From the human T2T-CHM13v2.0 reference genome, Homo sapiens: a stretch of DNA of 64,000 bases. Below, piece by piece: positions 31,701 to 49,719 of the stretch. Location: the NCBI RefSeq assembly GCF_009914755.1, contig NC_060926.1, one strand, 5' to 3'. The notes under the pieces were generated by a model, which did not search any database, was not told the DNA's origin, and saw only the letters and a list, made by a program, of their open reading frames with translations. Both the position numbers and the translations under genes were made by a program. Within the stretch, counting starts at the first letter, position 1. Each line of letters opens with the position of its first letter.

Positions 31701-33484
31701 CTTCCCAGTGGGAGCCACACTTTCAGGAAATCATAAAAGATAAGAAAAGTAAAAATGCTGCCAAGAGTCATAACTTATTTTTTGAAGAGTGAGCTCCCTC
31801 AGGGCCAAGTACTTCCTGGAAGAAGATGATTCAAGAAAGACTATGGAGTGTTTCCTGAAAGGCTGGTCAGAGCTAGACCAGCATCTGTGGAGACTTTAGT
31901 GCTTTTGAATTCATGCCCTGGCCTTCTGTGCCCTGGCTGTGTCTCTAGCTCTCTTTAGAAGTCACTGCTGGCCTTTATCCTGCCTCTGCAGCAGCTTCTT
32001 CCCAGTCTGCTCCGTCCTTTTTCTTTTCAACCAGATGTACATTCTTGTCTGTAACCTAAGGGCATTCTTGTTCATTTTCTTTATTTACAACAAAGTTTAC
32101 TTTAAAAGAAAGAAAATGTTTTTTCAATATATTCCATTGTTCAGATTTTTTTAACCAAGACTGGTTTCACTCCTACATATGCTCCACTCTGGATGAAAGA
32201 TTTTTGCCATATTCTCAGAGCATTACTACTCAACACCCAATACTCCTTTGTTCTCTCAGACATCTATATTATTAAGTAATCCTAATAATAGTTCTTGACT
32301 ATGAATAACATTTCTTTCACACATCTTGATTTCATTTGATCCTTATAATAGCCCTGTGAGGTAAGTAAGGAAGTTATTTTTATCTTCCTTTTTCAGACAA
32401 AAGCAAGTGAGAGTCAGAGAGGTTGACTTGCCAACTGTCGCACGACAAGCAAATGCCAGTTTCTACATCCGTCACCCATTTCCCAGCAGAAAAGTTATCT
32501 CTCTGATGGTTCTTCACTAGTAAAACCAGGATTGTTAGCATAGCATTTATGGCCCTTCTTAGTCTGGCTGAAATCCAGCTTTCTGGTTGGTAAAGTGTCT
32601 TTCTCTCTTGCCTAGATAGTGGGCCCCTGAGATTAGGAGCAGAACAGTGTTTACCACTGTTTCACTGGTGCCTAGCATAGAGCCAGATCTATAGAAGCAT
32701 CAAAAAATGTTTGTTGAATTGTGTCCACAGTGCAAGGGATGAGTTATGTTTTCACAAATATCTAAGCGTCTGCCTTTTACTAAACACAGAAGTTTCTTCC
32801 GTCATTTCATAGATTCTCAGCATCATTTAACTTCGTTTACCAGTTCCATTCTAACTAAACTTTTGTTAGTTAACCAGCTAGTATTCCTTAAGATAAAGGT
32901 CACATTACTTCATTACTATAGAGGAAATCAATCAATCAAGCAAATACACATCTGGGAGAATCCTCTTAGGAAGATGAGATTATAAAAAAAAATGGACACA
33001 GTCAAAACTAAAAGCATGTAAACTTCAGCCTGGGTCTTCACTGCAAATACACAAAGGCCCAGGGAATAGAAAAGGCCCTCGAAGCAAATGTAAACCCACT
33101 TCAATCTGTCTGCATCATCCTTATGTTTTTTATAATGTATTTTTCACTCAATAAAGTCTGTCACCACAGAGTCACGTGTGGCAACGACCATGTGGGTTTG
33201 GTGGCTAGCTGGACAAAGTAAAGTTTCTCTTTCCACTCTGAGCTGCTCTTGCACAATTCAGGAAAGTAAGTCCTTACCTCTTCACTTATTCAAGGATCAA
33301 CTCACATGTGATCTGTAGACAATATAGACCAATGAGTAGCCACTGGAGAAAATTATTATTATGACTATTTGCACCCTTAATTCCTTCCCCTGATTTATTT
33401 TTACTATTATCATCTGAAATGATACATAGTGCACTCACTTATATGTTTAATGTCTGTCTTCCTGCACCCAGCAGAACGTAAATG

Positions 33485-33920
33485 TGGCAGGAATGTCAAT
33501 CTTCCCACCAAATATTCATGCTCTCCTTCTCTAATGAAGAGTTTCTGCTGGGAAGTCACTATCCAGCCAGGAGCTACATTTTGCAGCTCCCTTATATGTG
33601 GCTAAAGCCACATGATTGAATATTGATGAATGTAATATGGGTAAAACTGATGTGTACAATGCCCAGGCTCCCATTCTGTCTTTTCTACTGTCTGACAACT
33701 GATGTCAATGACCAGGGTGACGTTGGAAGTCACAAATTGAAGACAGCAGAGCTTTCAATAAACTCAAGTGCTTAAATAAATATAATGAGCTGAACATTTC
33801 CCCCTACCCTTGTTGCTTATTGACTTTACAGGAACAAAAAATAAATTTCTATTGTGCTTGCTCACTGAGATTTCTGGGTTTATCTATTATTGCCTCTAGT
33901 ATTACATTCACTAATACAAT
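33485..33920 (+). mobile_element. MLT1-family LTR, degenerate
   Basis: AAATAAATTTCTATTGTG..CACTGAGATTTCTGGG..CTAATACA end. Confidence 0.6.
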
Positions 33921-34169
33921 AAATTCCACAAAGGCAGAGATATTATCTGTTTTATTCAATGCTAAACTCTGCCTGGACATGGTTGGCATACTATTATATT
34001 CAAGAAGTATTTGTTGAATAACAAATGAATGAATGAAAACGATATCAGAACCAGGTTTTAGTTAAACGCAAAGGAGCATAGCTCAAATGTCTGGCTTGGC
34101 CCTCATGCAAAGCTGTGTGTGCAAATGGTATCACTGGGGTTCATAGGCTCCTCAGGAGAACTTATTTTC

Positions 34170-34539
34170 TTTTCTTTTCTTTTTTTATAAAGTGTTTCTT
34201 TTATTTCTGTTTCTTATTTTCAAGCCATCCCGTTCATGTTGCAAAGGCAGTGTAGTGGAAAGATCACCCAACTAGGAGACTGGAGACCTTCATTTGAATC
34301 TTGATCCTGACACTAACTTGCTGGATGACTTTGAACTAGCTACTTAACTATTCAGGGTTTCCTCCTACCTGATGTTGGAGAGTTGAACTTGATGCTGTCT
34401 AGAAAGTCCCTCCTAGGTCAAATATTTGGTAGTTCATCTGAGTCTTTTCTGTCTTGTGGCTCTAATCCACACCTGAGTGGAACCATTCATTTGATCACTT
34501 CCCTTTTTCATCCATTCATACCACAAACAGGTGTTAGGT
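34170..34539 (-). pseudogene. Candidate 5'-truncated retrocopy of a polyadenylated transcript 3' end
   Basis: 20-bp TSD with 1 mismatch (34150-34169 / 34540-34559); T-tract 34170-34186; minus-strand AATAAA at 34200-34205. Confidence 0.6.
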
Positions 34540-34860
34540 CCTTAGGAGAACTTATTTTCATCCCCAGGTCTTCAACCTTAAGTGTCCCCATTCCCATACT
34601 ATGTTTTAAGGATGGATTCCAGAGCAACTTCTACACTAGGCAATATTTACACATCCATTTACTGATCAACCATAACAAGGCTCCGTCATATGACATATGT
34701 CAGGCACTATGCTGGGCACTGAGTAAACTCTAGGGACAAAGAGGCTTAAAGTGTATCCTTACTGTATCTTAGAAATAAACCATGAGCCAACATTATAAAA
34801 ACTGAACCCAAGCTCTTTACTTACCCTCCTAAACTTCACCACTCCCCAGAGCAAGGATGC

Positions 34861-35258
34861 TAGTATGATTTAGATAATTGTCCCACCCAAATCTCATGTT
34901 GAAATGTAATCTTCGGTGTTGAAGGTGGAGCCTGGTGAGAGGTGTTTAGGTCATGGGGGCAGATCTCTCACGGCTTGGTGCTGTCTTCATGATAGCGAGT
35001 GAGTTATGAGATCCAGCTTTTTAAAAGTGTGTGGAGACTCCCTCTCTCTCTGTTGCTCCCACTCTCACCATGTGTCGTGCCTGCTCCCCTTAGCCTTCTG
35101 CTATGATTAAAAGCTTCCTGAGGCCTCTCTAGAAGCTGAGCACATGCTGTCACCATGCTTCCTGCAGAGCTGAAACATAAGCCAATTAAGCCTCTTTTCT
35201 TTATCAATTACCCAGTCTCAGGTATTTCTTTGTAGCGATGCAAGAATGGCCTAACACA
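34861..35258 (+). mobile_element. MST-family MaLR solo LTR
   Basis: CCCAAATCTCATGTTGAAATGTAAT..CTAACACA; perfect 5-bp TSD GATGC. Confidence 0.9.
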
Positions 35259-37662
35259 GATGCAAAATGCAGGCTGATATATTGATATATTTGAAATAAG
35301 TGTAATATGAAAATTTGAGCACTTCCTCCAGATCGCTTGGGCCAACTTCCTAGTTTTATTACAATGGACTCTAAGAAGTCAATTCAGAGCACAAAAGGCT
35401 ACAGGAAGATCACCTGCTGTTCCTGTTCTAAATTTGTTCTTGTACTGGAACTCTCCACAGGAACTCAGTATCGTTAATGCTGTTATTTTCTTTGTTTTAC
35501 TTTTAAAAAGAAAAGAACCTCTTTTCTCCTGCAAAAAGAAGTCCATTAAACTACTGTTTGCATCCCTAGGCATATAACCCCCAAAAGGAGCATATTCCCC
35601 AAAGCAATCAGGGACAGAGGGCAAGCTGACAACCTCAGATCTGTTCTCTAGAGTAAGTTTAGTTTTCCCAACACTCAAGGAGAGGAAATGGAAACTGGAC
35701 TGACTTTCTCCATAGAGTCTTCCCTACTGCAGGAATCACTTACTGGTGGTTTGATCCATGCCTGGCCAATATTGTCTTCTACTGATGGGACATTTCCTTC
35801 CACTCTTTTTCACACTTTTGGAAAATGTCTGCCCCTTTCTCCAGAGCTTTGAAAGTAAGTTGATGTTTGGCATTTATGGGTTAATATTTGAGATTTTGGC
35901 TATTTGTGAGTAATTCTGAAAGTTCATGACATAATATTTAGCATTTTCTGAAACATAAATTTTATCTCATGAGCTACAATAACACAGTTGCCTCTCAGCA
36001 CACTGAGCAAGCCTTGTTGAGAATTTTAAGGGGATTTCTTGTATCATTAGCTTTATTTTGGTGCATTTTATGAGGATTGGGTAAATTAAGACATTCATAT
36101 CTCTTTATTGATCTAGTAAGTAGCTTAAAGCTCTTTTAGGAGACTACAAGTTCTTGCTTTCAATGCTTCCCCAGAAGGCCTCCAGCCTGCTGGCCAAGGC
36201 AAAATCACCTCCATAGTGAGAGACAGTTTGAGGAGGACAAAAGTTTATTAAGAGTGTAATATGTGCCAGGCATTCCATATTTATCTCATTTACTTTTCAA
36301 AAAATCCCTATGAGAGAGATACATTTTTTAATAAATAAAGAAGCTGGCTGGACTCAGAGAAGTTGTCACAAAAAGTCACATGGCTGGTAAGGTATAATCA
36401 AGACTCGAACCCAAGCCCCTGTGATTCTAGAATCTTCTGACAGCAATAGAGAGCAGAGGCTGGGCTTTCCTAGCTGGACACCATCCAGGATGGCCCCTTT
36501 ACACTGTATAGGCGTGGGGGGCAGAGGAAAAACCATCTCATTGAGTCTCACTAACGCAGGGTTGGCAGCAGCAGTGAGAAAGTTTGGCCTTAGAAGAATC
36601 AGAGTGAGGAGAGTAGAAGATGAAACAGCGTGTAGTGTGACACAGCAGGCTCCAAGGCTTTCAGGCCTGTCTTAAAAAAACTCATGGACGTGGTTTGTTT
36701 CTCTGTTTTTAATGTTACAATCACAATAAAGTGCTTTGAGGAAGGAAATCGAACAAGAATCTTGTGAAATTCTGCAAACCCAAACTAAAATGCAGAGTGT
36801 AAAAATGTCACAGGGAAAGAAAAGAACCAGACGGTGGGAAATCGATAGAATCTTAGCTGTCATTCATTTGATAGTTTGGCTCGGGGAGACCTAGAGAAGG
36901 GCCCCAGGTTCCAGGTCCACTCTGCCAGAAGCAGCAGATGGAACGGAACTTGTTAGCCACTGCCAACTCCCCCCGGGTCCCTGAGCCCAGGATATGCAGA
37001 GAAGGGTGAAGGCGCGGCACTCTTGCAGGGTCTGCCCAGTGCTTGGATTTGCTCCTCATTCTCTCAGGAGGACCAGGGGCTTCTGGAAATCAGTGGTCCC
37101 TGGTGGCTTGGAAGCTCCCTGAAACATGGAAGGAAGATGGATCTCAATGGGGAAGGTTTTGACCCTCCATATGTCACGTCTGTGGATCTGAGCAGAGGAA
37201 TCGATAGACTTAGCACAATAGCAGAAGAGAGGGAAGGCAGAAGACCTGAAGGAAGAGCAGCAGAGGAGGGGCAGGCATAAAGAATGGTAAACATAGAATG
37301 GCAACCATAGTCACCTCAGGGATCAGCTCATGGCCTCCTGGTCAAGCTTCCTCTCCCTGTGATTCTTGGCTGTCTTCCATCTGCAGCTAAGTAGCCAGAC
37401 CAGAATAGTCAATAATTCTAGTGATCTGGCAACTATAATTTTCTAGTCTTGATGAGTATCGGTATTGTCACTGTATTAAACTTCCCCTATTCGTCATCTC
37501 CATCTGATCATCATTATTATTCTAAGAATCCCATGTGGAAGTAGGAACTGGGGTGACAAGAATCTGGGTGCTGGCTGCCCCTTGAATGCATCCCATGGCC
37601 CCATAGCCATGACTGCGGTGCCAGTGAAGCAGCAGTTCCCAGGAAATACATGGATTGCCTTG

Positions 37663-38564: not shown

Positions 38565-41500
38565 CTGTGCTTGTCGTTTTCATGTAACTGTTTGAACCAG
38601 TATTTCCTAATATAGAATATCCTTGAGTAATCCTCCTTTTCGTAAGCCTCTGAAATTTTCTTGATATTCTTGTAGCATGACAAAATATACTGTCATCCTA
38701 AGACTCTTGTCCACCAAGGGATAGAGTGCATTCTCTATCCACTGGGAAATGGAGGTGATAAGAACACTTCCTGCTGACAAAGTCTGATGCTTCTACCAAC
38801 TCAGCCCAGTAACTCTGAAAGTGGACTCACCAAAGACAGAAGTGGCTCACAGCCCCACCTGGAGGCCCAGACAAGAGGTGGCTCTGCCCTGGGTCTGCTC
38901 TTTAGAGGGCTCTACTCTGGCATGCCTGTGGCTATGCCTCTCCCCACTGGGTGAGAAGTTCATTGCGCCTACGGAATGTGACCATTCAGAGCCTATGTCA
39001 CTTTCTGTTTACAGCACTCCCCGTGGATCAGGGCCCCTGCCCAGTGACCTCCAGCTCACTCCCAAGGCCCAGTCTGGCCATTTCCCTTGGCCTATCACCG
39101 CAGAGGGGACCTGTGCTTCTGGTATGTCCACCACTTGGCTCCCAAGATGTATATCTCTAGGTGCCCTGGGGTGACGACTGGGGCAGTGGGCATACCTTAG
39201 ATATGTGGACCATATTATCCACCCATGTGCTTGAGAGAGGATTGTCACAGAATGGGGCAAAGCTAGGGATGAGAAGTCAAGTTAGGGAGGGGAGACAGTA
39301 TGGTGAGGACAGGGGAAACCAGTTTTCTGGAGAGTCTGAAAATGATCAATTATAACCTGATCTTCAGGGTTATTATGAAAGTATACTTGTCAAGTGAGGA
39401 GCATAGAAATTCTGATTTAACATTTTTTAAAGTTAGTTTACAACTGTTAAGAATGAAAACACCTAGCTGATGAGCTTCCATTTGTACCCTTGCCTTGAGC
39501 CCTGCAAATGTGGGAGAGGGCCTGGAAAGTGGTACTGTTCCCACAGCTTGAATAAATACAATCAAGGAGGACGGAAAGATGTTGAGAAGTTGCAAAGATG
39601 CACAGTTTAGGGGGAAATCCCTCCTAAAACTCAAAGCAATGCAAACAGAAGGACTCCAAAGGCACTGAGGATTCACAGAGCCCAGCACAACCCGCCCTGG
39701 CCTCAGCACACAAGCTTGTGCCATCTGGACCCATGTGGACCCAGCCCACCTTCCAGCCTCATTTCCCACTACCTCACCCACACAAACCATCTTTGGCCAC
39801 AATAGACTACTCTTTGCTCCCTGAACTTACTGCCAGTTTTACACCTCAATGCTTTTGCCCAGGTCATTTGCTCAGCCTAGAACTCCCTTTCCCCTAATAA
39901 AATCATGTAAAGCTCAGCTTAAATGCAACCAGCTCTTAAAAGCCTATGACCTTGGACTCCCCACACAACCACACCTAGGGAAACTCACTGGTCTTTCATT
40001 CATGTCCATTGTTATTTTATACCTATGTCTATTATGGCATATCACACAGAAACCAGATCTTACTTGTTTTTGAATCCACATTAACATGTAGTAGTGGTCA
40101 GTAAATACTTGCTCAATGACTTCTGCTCAGTAAAGAAAAGCCACTGATTCTTCTCAAACAGTCTACCTAAGGTTGCTTCCCTCTCACCCGGAAGAGAAAG
40201 TCGTCTTGTGCTTATTCTCCTCATCACTCTTCTCCTTTTTCTTCCTCTTCGCCATTGTTATGACCATGCACTGTGGTTTAATATGGTTTTCTTGTTTATT
40301 TATATACATCAATTCATGGCAGCTTCATATATGTGATATTGTAAGTCTCATTTTCTCCTGAAGAAATAGTTTCTGAGAGTGACGAAGCAGCAGAACTTTC
40401 ACTTGAAGCCCACTTGTTAGTTCTAGAATCAGCACTCCTTCTACTCCACTAGATCCCTGAGGTTCAGACCTGAGCACTCAGGTGGGTCTCACGACAGAGC
40501 AGCTGATGCAGGGCCTGGTGGAGGATCCACACAGAGATTTAATCAGCAGTGGATTGGGGCCAAGAAGGAAGAGTCAGGAAGGAAATCCCCAATGTGTGAA
40601 AAACAAAACCACAACAATCAACAATGAAAATCCAGGGACAGGGAAGTGAGTTCCACCTAAATAAACCCCAATCATTGGACATGCTGGCTTAAGTGAACTA
40701 GGACTTTCCAGAAAACGGGAGGTCACATGGGAGTGACTCAAGGTTTCAACCTCTGAGGGCAATGATTGCTGGAAACTATCTCACAAGGAACACTTCTGAA
40801 GGGATTTGGAAAGAATGCTTGCTAAAGGAAGGAAGCAGTCCAGAAATGGACAAATGAATCCATAAGGAAGGGCTGAGAAAGGGACAGGTGGGAAAAGCGG
40901 TCTCGGTGAAGATGAAGGAGGAAGTCAGAAAGTAGTTCAAAAAAACCAATTCTAGCAGACGGAGGATGAGCCAGGCACTCCTGCCCACCTCTGTGGCCTT
41001 GTGGTTTCCTGTGGCATGATGCCAACTTAATTCTACACAAGCCAGGTGAGTCAGTGCTGGCAAGAAGTCACTGAGAATGGGCCAGACCATGGACTTGTCT
41101 TCCCCAACTCCACCAAAAGCCCTGGAAAGTGAGACACTCTCTCTCATTTCCCGCTGAGAAAGGAGAAGCCCCTCTGCTTGCTGCTTTTCCCCTCTCAAAG
41201 CTCTTCCTAGGTTTCCTCTTTGCCCCTTCAGGAAGCAAAGGTCTCACACTCAAGTCCCTTACTGCTTAGCCGTGCAGTGGGGCAGCTATGATTCACTTTT
41301 ACATTGTGTTGGAAGCATGGCGCTGCATCAGCATTTGTAGAACCAGATAAGGAATACCTACATTAATACCAACTTGTGTCTGTGAAGGCCAGTTTTCCAG
41401 AGCTAAAGAATAAGGCGTGAGAGTCAGATATCAACTGCAAAAATCAGTCATTTGTCTGACCTAAATTAAAGACTCATCTTCACGTGCACAGAACCCGCCT

Positions 41501-42845
41501 TCTCCCTCAATTAGGGCCTGGAGATCCATCCCTTTCCTGTCAGCACCCACTGAAAAGAGAGGAAACAGCAAGGAAAGGGTGGGAAGACACTGCTTCTGTA
41601 CAAAGCTTAACAGAACTCAGGTGTGCCATTCAAAATTCCACCAGGAGCTTCCTCAAGGCCCAACTATGACAGGCCTTGAAATGTCCAGCAGAACCACAAG
41701 CTGACAATTAGTCACCATCAAGAGCCGGTAGATCAGCTTGAGAAAAGACACGGCAGCAGCCAGCAGGCACAGTGGGTGGCACCGTCTAAGATGTGGATGT
41801 CTGTGGCAGCCCCAGCATGTCCCCCTAATTATGGTGTGCTCTTTGACTCAGGAGACATCACCTACAATTAGTTCTGGGACACGTTCTGGGGAGAGGGGCC
41901 TGCAGCAGGCTTTTTCTCTTCTGCAGCACCTGTGGTACACAGATAGACACTGGGTGATACCTAGGAAGGTCTCGAGCCAGCAGCTCCAACCGAGCCCTGT
42001 GCCTCCCTGGTTTCCTATGGGGGCCCGAAGCTTGTTTTTGCTGGCACAACCTATGCCCGAGTAACCGACAGGAATTGGGAAAGAAGGCTCTGCTGTTTTG
42101 ACTCCAAAACTTGCCTCTCAGAGCTCTTCCATTACACTTGTAAGAACTAATTTTTGTCACAAAGGAACTATTTTCAGGAGACTGAAAAATATCCTTCAAT
42201 ACCAGACCAGAAGGAAGAGCTTTCAAAGAAAAAGATCCTAGGGATGAGATTTAGAGAAGGAGATATTAGAGATTAGTAGTGGTCTGTGCATTTTCAGTAA
42301 CATACAGAATGGAAGGGATAGAGAGACAGAGGAGAAGAAGAAGAAGCAAGAATTCAAATGTTTGTAGATCTCAGGTTCACAACTCACTAGCTCTGCATCC
42401 ATTGGCAAGATCTTTATACTCTCTGACCCTATGTCCCCATTATTTAATGGAGACAGTAATAGTTTCCTTACCTGGTGGTTGTAAGAAGACAATGTTTGTT
42501 AATGCCAGGATTAGAGCAAGTATCAAGAAGTGTTTCTGAAAGCAGAAGTTGGAGCTTGGCAGTATTTTATACGTATTTTATGCCACTCTCCCAAAGACTT
42601 CCTGGCCGTGTGCACCTACCAATAAAGTAATGATGTTCTCTCAGCACCTTCTAGGGAAAAGGTTCTGAATCCCACATTGAGACACAGCAATGACCACCAG
42701 CAGGCAGAGAGAGAGAGAGAGAGCACGAACTCCTCCTGTGAGGCCTGTCTTGGGCCAAACTGTGGAAGTAAGTACTCCTTCCTATCACTTGTGGACTAAG
42801 TGGTCTCAGAGATTGGACTAAGTGGTCTTAGATATCCAGGGATCT

Positions 42846-47305: not shown

Positions 47306-49719
<2,414 letters not shown>

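What the first reader, a model, noticed from the sequence alone, without database searches (positions are those of the whole stretch)
34150..34559. Orphan retrocopy: non-TE sequence with TSD, poly(A) and polyadenylation signal
Seen: CCTCAGGAGAACTTATTTTC (34150-34169) recurs as CCTTAGGAGAACTTATTTTC (34540-34559). Just inside the left copy is a T-tract (34170-34186), with a minus-strand AATAAA 13 nt upstream of it. The right junction reads TTTTC/A, an L1 endonuclease-like nick. The ~350-bp body is neither Alu nor L1 but holds a decayed MIR-like piece. Known: these are hallmarks of target-primed reverse transcription. Inference: a 5'-truncated processed copy of an mRNA or lncRNA 3' end, or an orphan L1 3' transduction. 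Repeat maskers and pseudogene pipelines would probably miss it.
Basis: partly seen in the sequence, partly recalled or inferred. Interest (0 to 1): 0.72.

Follow-up and report, generated by a model that had tools for sequence, protein, structure and literature searches.

The report
Chromosome 4 snippet retro-copied near XDH
A 359-base piece of non-coding chromosome 4 sits copied, with an added A-tail and a duplicated landing site, just upstream of the XDH gene on chromosome 2; it was likely pasted in by the LINE-1 machinery in an ape ancestor, a real but ordinary event with no sign of function.

Summary
Confirmed, and the parent was found. Window 34185-34543 (minus strand) is a copy of chr4:87,703,272-87,703,630, with 13 differences in 359 bases (3.6%) and no indels. 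Homology stops at a 21-nt target-site duplication on one side and at an A-tail on the other. The chr4 donor has no tail, and its AATAAA is followed by the most pyrimidine-rich 30 nt of 346 such sites in 220 kb. That points to a polyadenylated RNA inserted by LINE-1 target-primed reverse transcription (about 0.97), roughly 10-20 million years ago (calibration recalled). The source of the RNA is open. No LINE-1 of matching age lies within 20 kb upstream of the donor; the nearest is 68.5 kb away, past 90 AATAAA signals, and no offspring of it were found. Best guess: an orphan 3' transduction from a source element since lost (0.5). Rival: an unannotated host transcript copied in trans (0.35). The class is described (class 1 templated insertions, orphan transductions). 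No evidence of function. New member of a known kind; low interest.

The parts
34149..34169 (-). Target-site duplication, copy at the 3' (tail) end of the insert; predicted to be the original target sequence
   Evidence: 21 nt, 1 mismatch (34153 vs 34543) to the other copy
34170..34186 (-). A-tail, 17 nt with two G interruptions in a GAAAA rhythm that echoes the start of the duplication; 34170-34184 are not in the donor, 34185-34186 could be donor or tail
34200..34205 (-). Polyadenylation signal AATAAA, 13-15 nt before the tail; present in the donor at chr4:87,703,610
34185..34543 (-). Copied body, 359 nt, collinear with G000:C4:87703272-87703630 (+), 13 substitutions, no indels
34250..34353 (+). 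Decayed dispersed-repeat piece inside the body (MIR-like; name recalled), carried over from the donor
   Evidence: 75% and 82% to two other loci
34539..34543 (-). 5' junction microhomology: 5 nt that belong to both the donor and the duplication; the single duplication mismatch (34543) carries the donor's base
34539..34559 (-). Target-site duplication, copy at the 5' end of the insert; its edge at 34559|34560 reads TTTTC/AT on the + strand, the inferred endonuclease nick

Best explanation
A 359-base stretch of chromosome 4 is copied here with an added A-tail and a 21-base target duplication; it was likely inserted by LINE-1 target-primed reverse transcription of a polyadenylated RNA, most likely the read-through tail of a LINE-1 (or SVA) that no longer lies next to the donor. 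Shown: the donor, the two junctions, the tail, the duplication, the divergence and the absence of a nearby source in this assembly. Inferred steps: (1) a Pol II transcript crossed chr4:87.703 Mb on the + strand and was cut and polyadenylated 13-15 nt after the AATAAA at 87,703,610; (2) L1 ORF2p nicked the chr2 target at TTTTC/AT and primed on the tail; (3) reverse transcription stopped after about 360 nt and joined through a 4-5 nt microhomology, leaving a 5'-truncated insert without L1 sequence; (4) this happened about 10-20 million years ago in a hominoid germ line; (5) the driving element sat within about 1 kb to a few kb upstream of the donor, was polymorphic and was later lost, while the copy was kept. 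The copy most likely does nothing. Steps 1-3 stand at about 0.97; the confidence given is for the whole account including the lost source.
For: One strong paralogue in the genome (96%, E 5.6e-163); the other 2 of 4 matches besides the window itself are weak repeat hits. Homology limited to window 34185-34543, none in the chr2 flanks. No second copy of the donor's flanks at high identity: 2.7 kb upstream, 4.8 kb further upstream, 3.6 kb downstream. The donor reads on into unique sequence without a tail. An AATAAA falls in a 21-position window by chance with P about 0.03 at the local frequency. The 30 nt after the cut have 26 pyrimidines (rank 1 of 346 + strand AATAAA sites in 220 kb) and 18 T (3 of 346 reach it), as expected of a working poly(A) site. 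The next AATAAA upstream is 1097 nt away, which leaves room for a close source with an ordinary transduction length. Base rates: 3,669 L1 transductions against 274 processed pseudogenes in tumours (PMC7058536, passage); 229 orphan transductions against 143 non-reference pseudogenes in 1,019 germ-line genomes, whose authors note that sources may not co-segregate and mark some source loci as unknown (bioRxiv 10.1101/2024.04.18.590093, passages). Reference copies whose source L1 is absent from the reference are described (PMC13009371, passage).
Against: No source element is seen. A blastn of a young full-length L1 against 220 kb of chr4 finds only an antisense 75% fragment at 2.7 kb and a sense 84% element ending 26 kb upstream, and no SVA-type hexamer array. 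The lost source is therefore unobserved and rests on base rates. The germ-line 'orphan' count is defined only by aligning outside exons and so does not separate cis from trans. No sibling copies were found, although active sources often leave several. The nick TTTTC/AT departs from the TTTT/AA preference (PMC2912911). No outgroup empty site could be read.
Confidence: 0.5

Rival explanations
1. Same insertion chemistry, but the template was a host Pol II transcript (unannotated lncRNA, enhancer RNA or intergenic read-through) ending at this poly(A) site and mobilised in trans, as proposed for class 1 templated insertions.
For: No L1 source within 20 kb. The donor's poly(A) site has the most pyrimidine-rich downstream element of 346 nearby. 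A single-copy stretch that looks like an enhancer or promoter lies about 10 kb upstream (function by eye only). PMC5110952 (parts 1-3 of 4 read) describes polyadenylated intergenic or intronic fragments used in trans.
Against: No transcript evidence was available. No splice junction in the copy. Trans-mobilised mRNA copies are the rarer class in tumours (274 vs 3,669 transductions), and a rare intergenic RNA should be a rarer template still (inference).
Confidence: 0.35
2. Long-range or spliced 3' transduction from the full-length sense L1 still present 68.5 kb upstream (C4:87,628,756-87,634,795).
For: Right orientation, full length, 97% to a young L1. Second-codon-position difference in ORF2 is 1.6%, so about 3.2% expected between a copy and its parent of that age, against 3.6% seen. 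It lacks the 129-bp 5' UTR segment (no indel over 4 nt there), placing it in late L1PA3 or L1PA2 (PMC5860796, passages). Its 5' end is the only CpG-island-like stretch in 220 kb.
Against: 90 AATAAA and 70 ATTAAA lie between it and the donor. Pipelines accept sources within 3-10 kb. No near-identical copy of its 3' flank among 40 scored of 28,648 candidates or 40 of 4,025 (best other hit 86%). A sense full-length L1PA2-6 falls within 68.5 kb by chance with P about 0.07, or 0.13 at double local density.
Confidence: 0.09
3. The template was an excised intron: the donor's downstream sequence is a splice acceptor, and the copy ends at the branch point of a trimmed, debranched and tailed lariat.
For: The donor reads as a branch-point-like motif, a 16-nt pyrimidine tract and CAG right after the copy's last base (read by eye).
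Against: An AATAAA at the usual distance explains the end without this (chance about 0.03). T-rich poly(A) downstream elements look like pyrimidine tracts. No exon is known there. No splice-site model was run.
Confidence: 0.03
4. A DNA-level event (break-repair patch or small interspersed duplication), with the repeat and the T-tract coincidental.
For: There is a 5-nt microhomology at one junction, which break repair also gives.
Against: A 21-nt duplication (0 in 10 simulations), a tail absent from the donor and an end 13-15 nt after AATAAA would all have to coincide. Class 2 templated insertions lack these features (PMC5110952).
Confidence: 0.02

Closest known systems
Class 1 templated sequence insertion (TSIP; Onozawa and Aplan, PMC5110952)
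   Same: Distant intact donor, target-site duplication, non-templated A-tail 10-30 nt after a cryptic AATAAA, non-annotated intergenic or intronic template, L1-type target.
   Different: TSIPs were defined as present-day polymorphisms. This one is in the T2T reference and 3.6% diverged from its donor, so it is likely old and fixed (not tested). Its nick reads TTTTC/AT rather than TTTT/A.
Orphan L1 3' transduction (PMC7058536; PMC13009371; bioRxiv 10.1101/2024.04.18.590093)
   Same: 5'-truncated insert of unique sequence with no L1 portion, ending at a downstream poly(A) signal. Length 359 nt against medians of 335 bp (somatic) and 968 bp (germ line) in PMC13009371.
   Different: No full-length source within 10 kb upstream of the donor in this assembly; nearest age-matched one is 68.5 kb away.
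5'-truncated processed pseudogene or lncRNA retrocopy
   Same: Tail, duplication, poly(A) signal, 5' microhomology.
   Different: No splice junction in the copy; no annotated parent exon could be shown; no open reading frame of 170 codons or more other than L1, one zinc-finger pseudogene and two chance frames in 220 kb around the donor.

Membership tests
Class 1 templated insertion (L1 TPRT of non-TE RNA) | Target-site duplication of at least 5 bp | tested here: met
   21 nt with 1 mismatch, or 16 nt perfect
Class 1 templated insertion (L1 TPRT of non-TE RNA) | Non-templated A-tail of 10-40 nt | tested here: met
   15-17 nt with two G interruptions, absent from the donor
Class 1 templated insertion (L1 TPRT of non-TE RNA) | AATAAA 10-30 nt upstream of the tail | tested here: met
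   13-15 nt; present in donor and copy
Class 1 templated insertion (L1 TPRT of non-TE RNA) | Distant, intact donor locus | tested here: met
   G000:C4:87703272-87703630, 96.4%
Class 1 templated insertion (L1 TPRT of non-TE RNA) | Preference for a 5'-TTTT/A-3' nick | tested here: inconclusive
   TTTTC/AT: T-rich with a pyrimidine/purine step, but not the consensus (consensus). That such variants are commonly cut is recalled; the paper was not held.
Class 1 TSIP (as a polymorphism) | Presence/absence polymorphism in humans | not testable with these tools
   One assembly only; 3.6% divergence makes fixation likely
Orphan L1 3' transduction | Insert holds no L1 sequence | tested here: met
   No match of a full-length young L1 to 34149-34559; the whole body aligns to the donor
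Orphan L1 3' transduction | Full-length sense L1 or SVA within about 10 kb upstream of the donor | tested here: not met
   None within 20 kb in this assembly. It works like one, but membership is not shown unless a lost source turns up in apes.
Processed pseudogene / lncRNA retrocopy | Introns removed relative to the parent | tested here: inconclusive
   Collinear over 359 nt with no indel; too short to span more than a last exon
Processed pseudogene / lncRNA retrocopy | Parent is an annotated, transcribed exon ending at the same poly(A) site | not testable with these tools
Any TPRT insertion | Empty site with one copy of the target in an outgroup | not testable with these tools
   No other primate or mammal genome is held (no relatives)

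The most novel reading that the evidence does not exclude
The copy is a fossil record of an RNA no catalogue lists: either a spliced or read-through transcript running 68.5 kb from the surviving full-length L1 to this poly(A) site, far beyond the 3-10 kb that pipelines allow, or an excised intron copied up to its branch point. Either would mean that fixed tail-and-duplication copies of unique sequence can be mined genome-wide as a dated archive of ancestral germ-line transcripts and vanished L1 sources.
Probability: 0.12. Interest if true: 0.55.

Novelty: new member of a known kind. Interest (0 to 1): 0.24.

Why it matters
Little on its own: no coding content, no siblings, no sign of function. 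It is a clean, datable example of LINE-1 moving unique non-coding DNA between chromosomes in the ape lineage. It shows that an intergenic chr4 poly(A) site was in use in the germ line or early embryo, and it is a possible phylogenetic marker. It lies 8.7 kb upstream of the XDH start and on XDH's strand, between the promoter and a RefSeq enhancer at 40339-41538, but it lost the donor's T-rich downstream element, so an effect on transcription is speculative.

Tried and rejected
Structured RNA: no Rfam match at E up to 1 in 32000-37000. Segmental duplication: chr2 flanks have no chr4 homology; donor flanks have no high-identity second copy. Reverse direction (chr2 as donor): only chr2 has tail and duplication. 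Adjacent L1 or SVA source: none within 20 kb; the 84% sense L1 at 26 kb and the 85-89% one at 81 kb are too old for a 3.6% copy (inference). Offspring of the 68.5-kb L1: none among the scored candidates (only 40 candidates are scored per search). Parts of the 68.5-kb interval were not searched for copies: I queried about 12 kb of it. Anchoring the donor to a homeobox gene failed: no hit near C4:87.8 Mb among the 150 listed. A 244-codon minus-strand frame at C4:87.639 Mb has no Pfam match and overlaps an Alu-like stretch. Duplication length does not separate cis from trans: only short duplications do (PMC2912911, parts 1-2 of 5). Literature: searches listed no paper on this locus; one search listed none on lariat-derived retrocopies; one search listed 18 papers naming the recalled neighbouring lncRNA, none opened. 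Only listings were seen for these. Tubio 2014, Onozawa 2015, Solyom 2012, Szak 2003 and Flasch 2019 were not held, so their text and supplements, which might list this locus, were not seen; supplements of the bioRxiv preprint were also not seen. Chr4 sequence more than 10 kb downstream of the donor was not examined.

Full report
Observation. A 21-nt direct repeat with one mismatch lies at 34149-34169 and 34539-34559. Among 6 such pairs in the window it is the only one that is not, by its letters, an Alu, L1 or simple repeat, and ten order-4 Markov simulations of 64 kb gave none. Inside the left copy lies a T-tract (34170-34186); a minus-strand AATAAA (34200-34205) lies 13 nt from it; the right edge reads TTTTC/AT. 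No Rfam family matches.

The parent. A search of the whole assembly with the body gave 4 matches: the window itself, one at 96% over all 353 bases on contig C4 (taken to be chr4 from its number and length), and two weak hits to the internal repeat piece. A wider query fixed the limits: window 34185-34543 equals C4:87,703,272-87,703,630 on the + strand, with no homology in the chr2 flanks. The two differ at 13 of 359 positions (3.6%, Poisson 95% interval 1.9-6.2%), without indels; 5 of the 13 look like CpG decay (read by eye). At the 3' end the donor runs on into unique sequence where the copy has its tail. At the 5' end the last 5 bases of the duplication also match the donor, and the one mismatch between the two duplication copies falls on the outermost of them and carries the donor's base. 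The simplest reading is a 21-nt duplication joined through a 4-5 nt microhomology; a 16-nt perfect duplication is the alternative. The donor's flanks have no second copy at high identity, so this is neither a segmental duplication nor a family.

The RNA end. The copy stops 13-15 nt after an AATAAA that the donor also has; at the local frequency a hexamer falls in a 21-position window with P about 0.03. The 30 nt after the cut in the donor hold 26 pyrimidines, the most among 346 + strand AATAAA sites in 220 kb, and 18 T, reached by 3 of 346 (the 30-nt window was chosen after seeing the site). This is what a working cleavage and polyadenylation site looks like. The same letters could also be read as branch point, pyrimidine tract and acceptor; I give that little weight.

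Age. With recalled calibrations (human-chimpanzee about 1.2%, human-orangutan about 3%, human-macaque about 6.5%) the divergence points to a hominoid ancestor, about 10-20 million years ago. It is therefore likely fixed in humans, which was not tested.

Who made the RNA. A young full-length L1 from the same assembly (L022) was compared with 210 kb upstream and 10 kb downstream of the donor. Within 20 kb upstream there is only a 75% antisense fragment. A sense element at 84% ends 26 kb away and is too old. A full-length sense L1 at 97% ends 68.5 kb away. Its age fits: 1.6% at second codon positions of ORF2 and no 129-bp 5' UTR segment (PMC5860796 passages). But 90 AATAAA lie between it and the donor, no near-identical copy of its 3' flank was found (40 candidates scored each), and such proximity has a chance of about 0.07-0.13 (using counts). 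No SVA hexamer array was found. So the defining source of a classical 3' transduction is missing in this assembly. Two readings remain. (a) The source was a polymorphic L1 or SVA close to the donor that was later lost; the next AATAAA upstream is 1097 nt away, transductions outnumber trans-copied mRNAs 3,669 to 274 in tumours (PMC7058536 passage), and absent sources are documented (PMC13009371 passage; bioRxiv 10.1101/2024.04.18.590093 passages). (b) An unannotated host transcript was copied in trans, the reading given for class 1 templated insertions (PMC5110952, parts 1-3 of 4). From recall only, the donor lies in a gene-poor interval between a lncRNA (LINC02994) and NKX6-1; the anchor search did not confirm this.

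Comparison with what is known. It meets the structural definition of a class 1 templated insertion (duplication, tail, signal, distant intact donor), with a non-consensus nick and untested polymorphism. It works like an orphan transduction but fails the source test. It cannot be called a processed pseudogene without a parent transcript. A set of 1,019 genomes held 229 polymorphic orphan insertions of this type, so the kind is common. Searches listed no paper on this locus, but several key papers and all their supplements were out of reach.

Verdict. Real, explained in its main mechanism, open in the origin of its RNA, and without evidence of function. New member of a known kind; interest 0.24.

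Noticed in passing
L002:1856-1885 (G000:C4:87703631-87703660): Just past the copied stretch the donor has a branch-point-like motif, a pyrimidine tract and CAG, so the site reads both as a strong poly(A) downstream element and as a possible splice acceptor.
   Followed up: partly
L028:5357 to L027:1396 (G000:C4:87628756-87634795): Full-length sense L1, 97% to a young L1, with its own short duplication, nested in an older same-sense L1; its 5' end is the only CpG-island-like stretch in 220 kb. Its ORFs are interrupted. From recalled coordinates its antisense promoter may coincide with the start of LINC02994 (unchecked).
   Followed up: partly
L007:9100-9900 (G000:C4:87692500-87693300): Single-copy stretch with GC-box, CCAAT-like and forkhead-like motifs (by eye) about 10 kb upstream of the donor; a candidate enhancer or start site for a host transcript.
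   Followed up: no
L033, G000:C4:87573789-87575374: Intronless, frameshifted C2H2 zinc-finger sequence on the + strand (Pfam zf-C2H2 hits); looks like a processed pseudogene of PLAGL2 (name recalled).
   Followed up: partly
window 47316-49697: 5'-inverted young L1 (94-97% to L022), two segments meeting at 48705, the twin-priming structure. A similar inverted L1 lies at G000:C4:87643907-87645219.
   Followed up: no
G000:C4:87530000-87680000: Most long L1 copies in this interval lie on the + strand, which might reflect minus-strand transcription of the region or chance.
   Followed up: no
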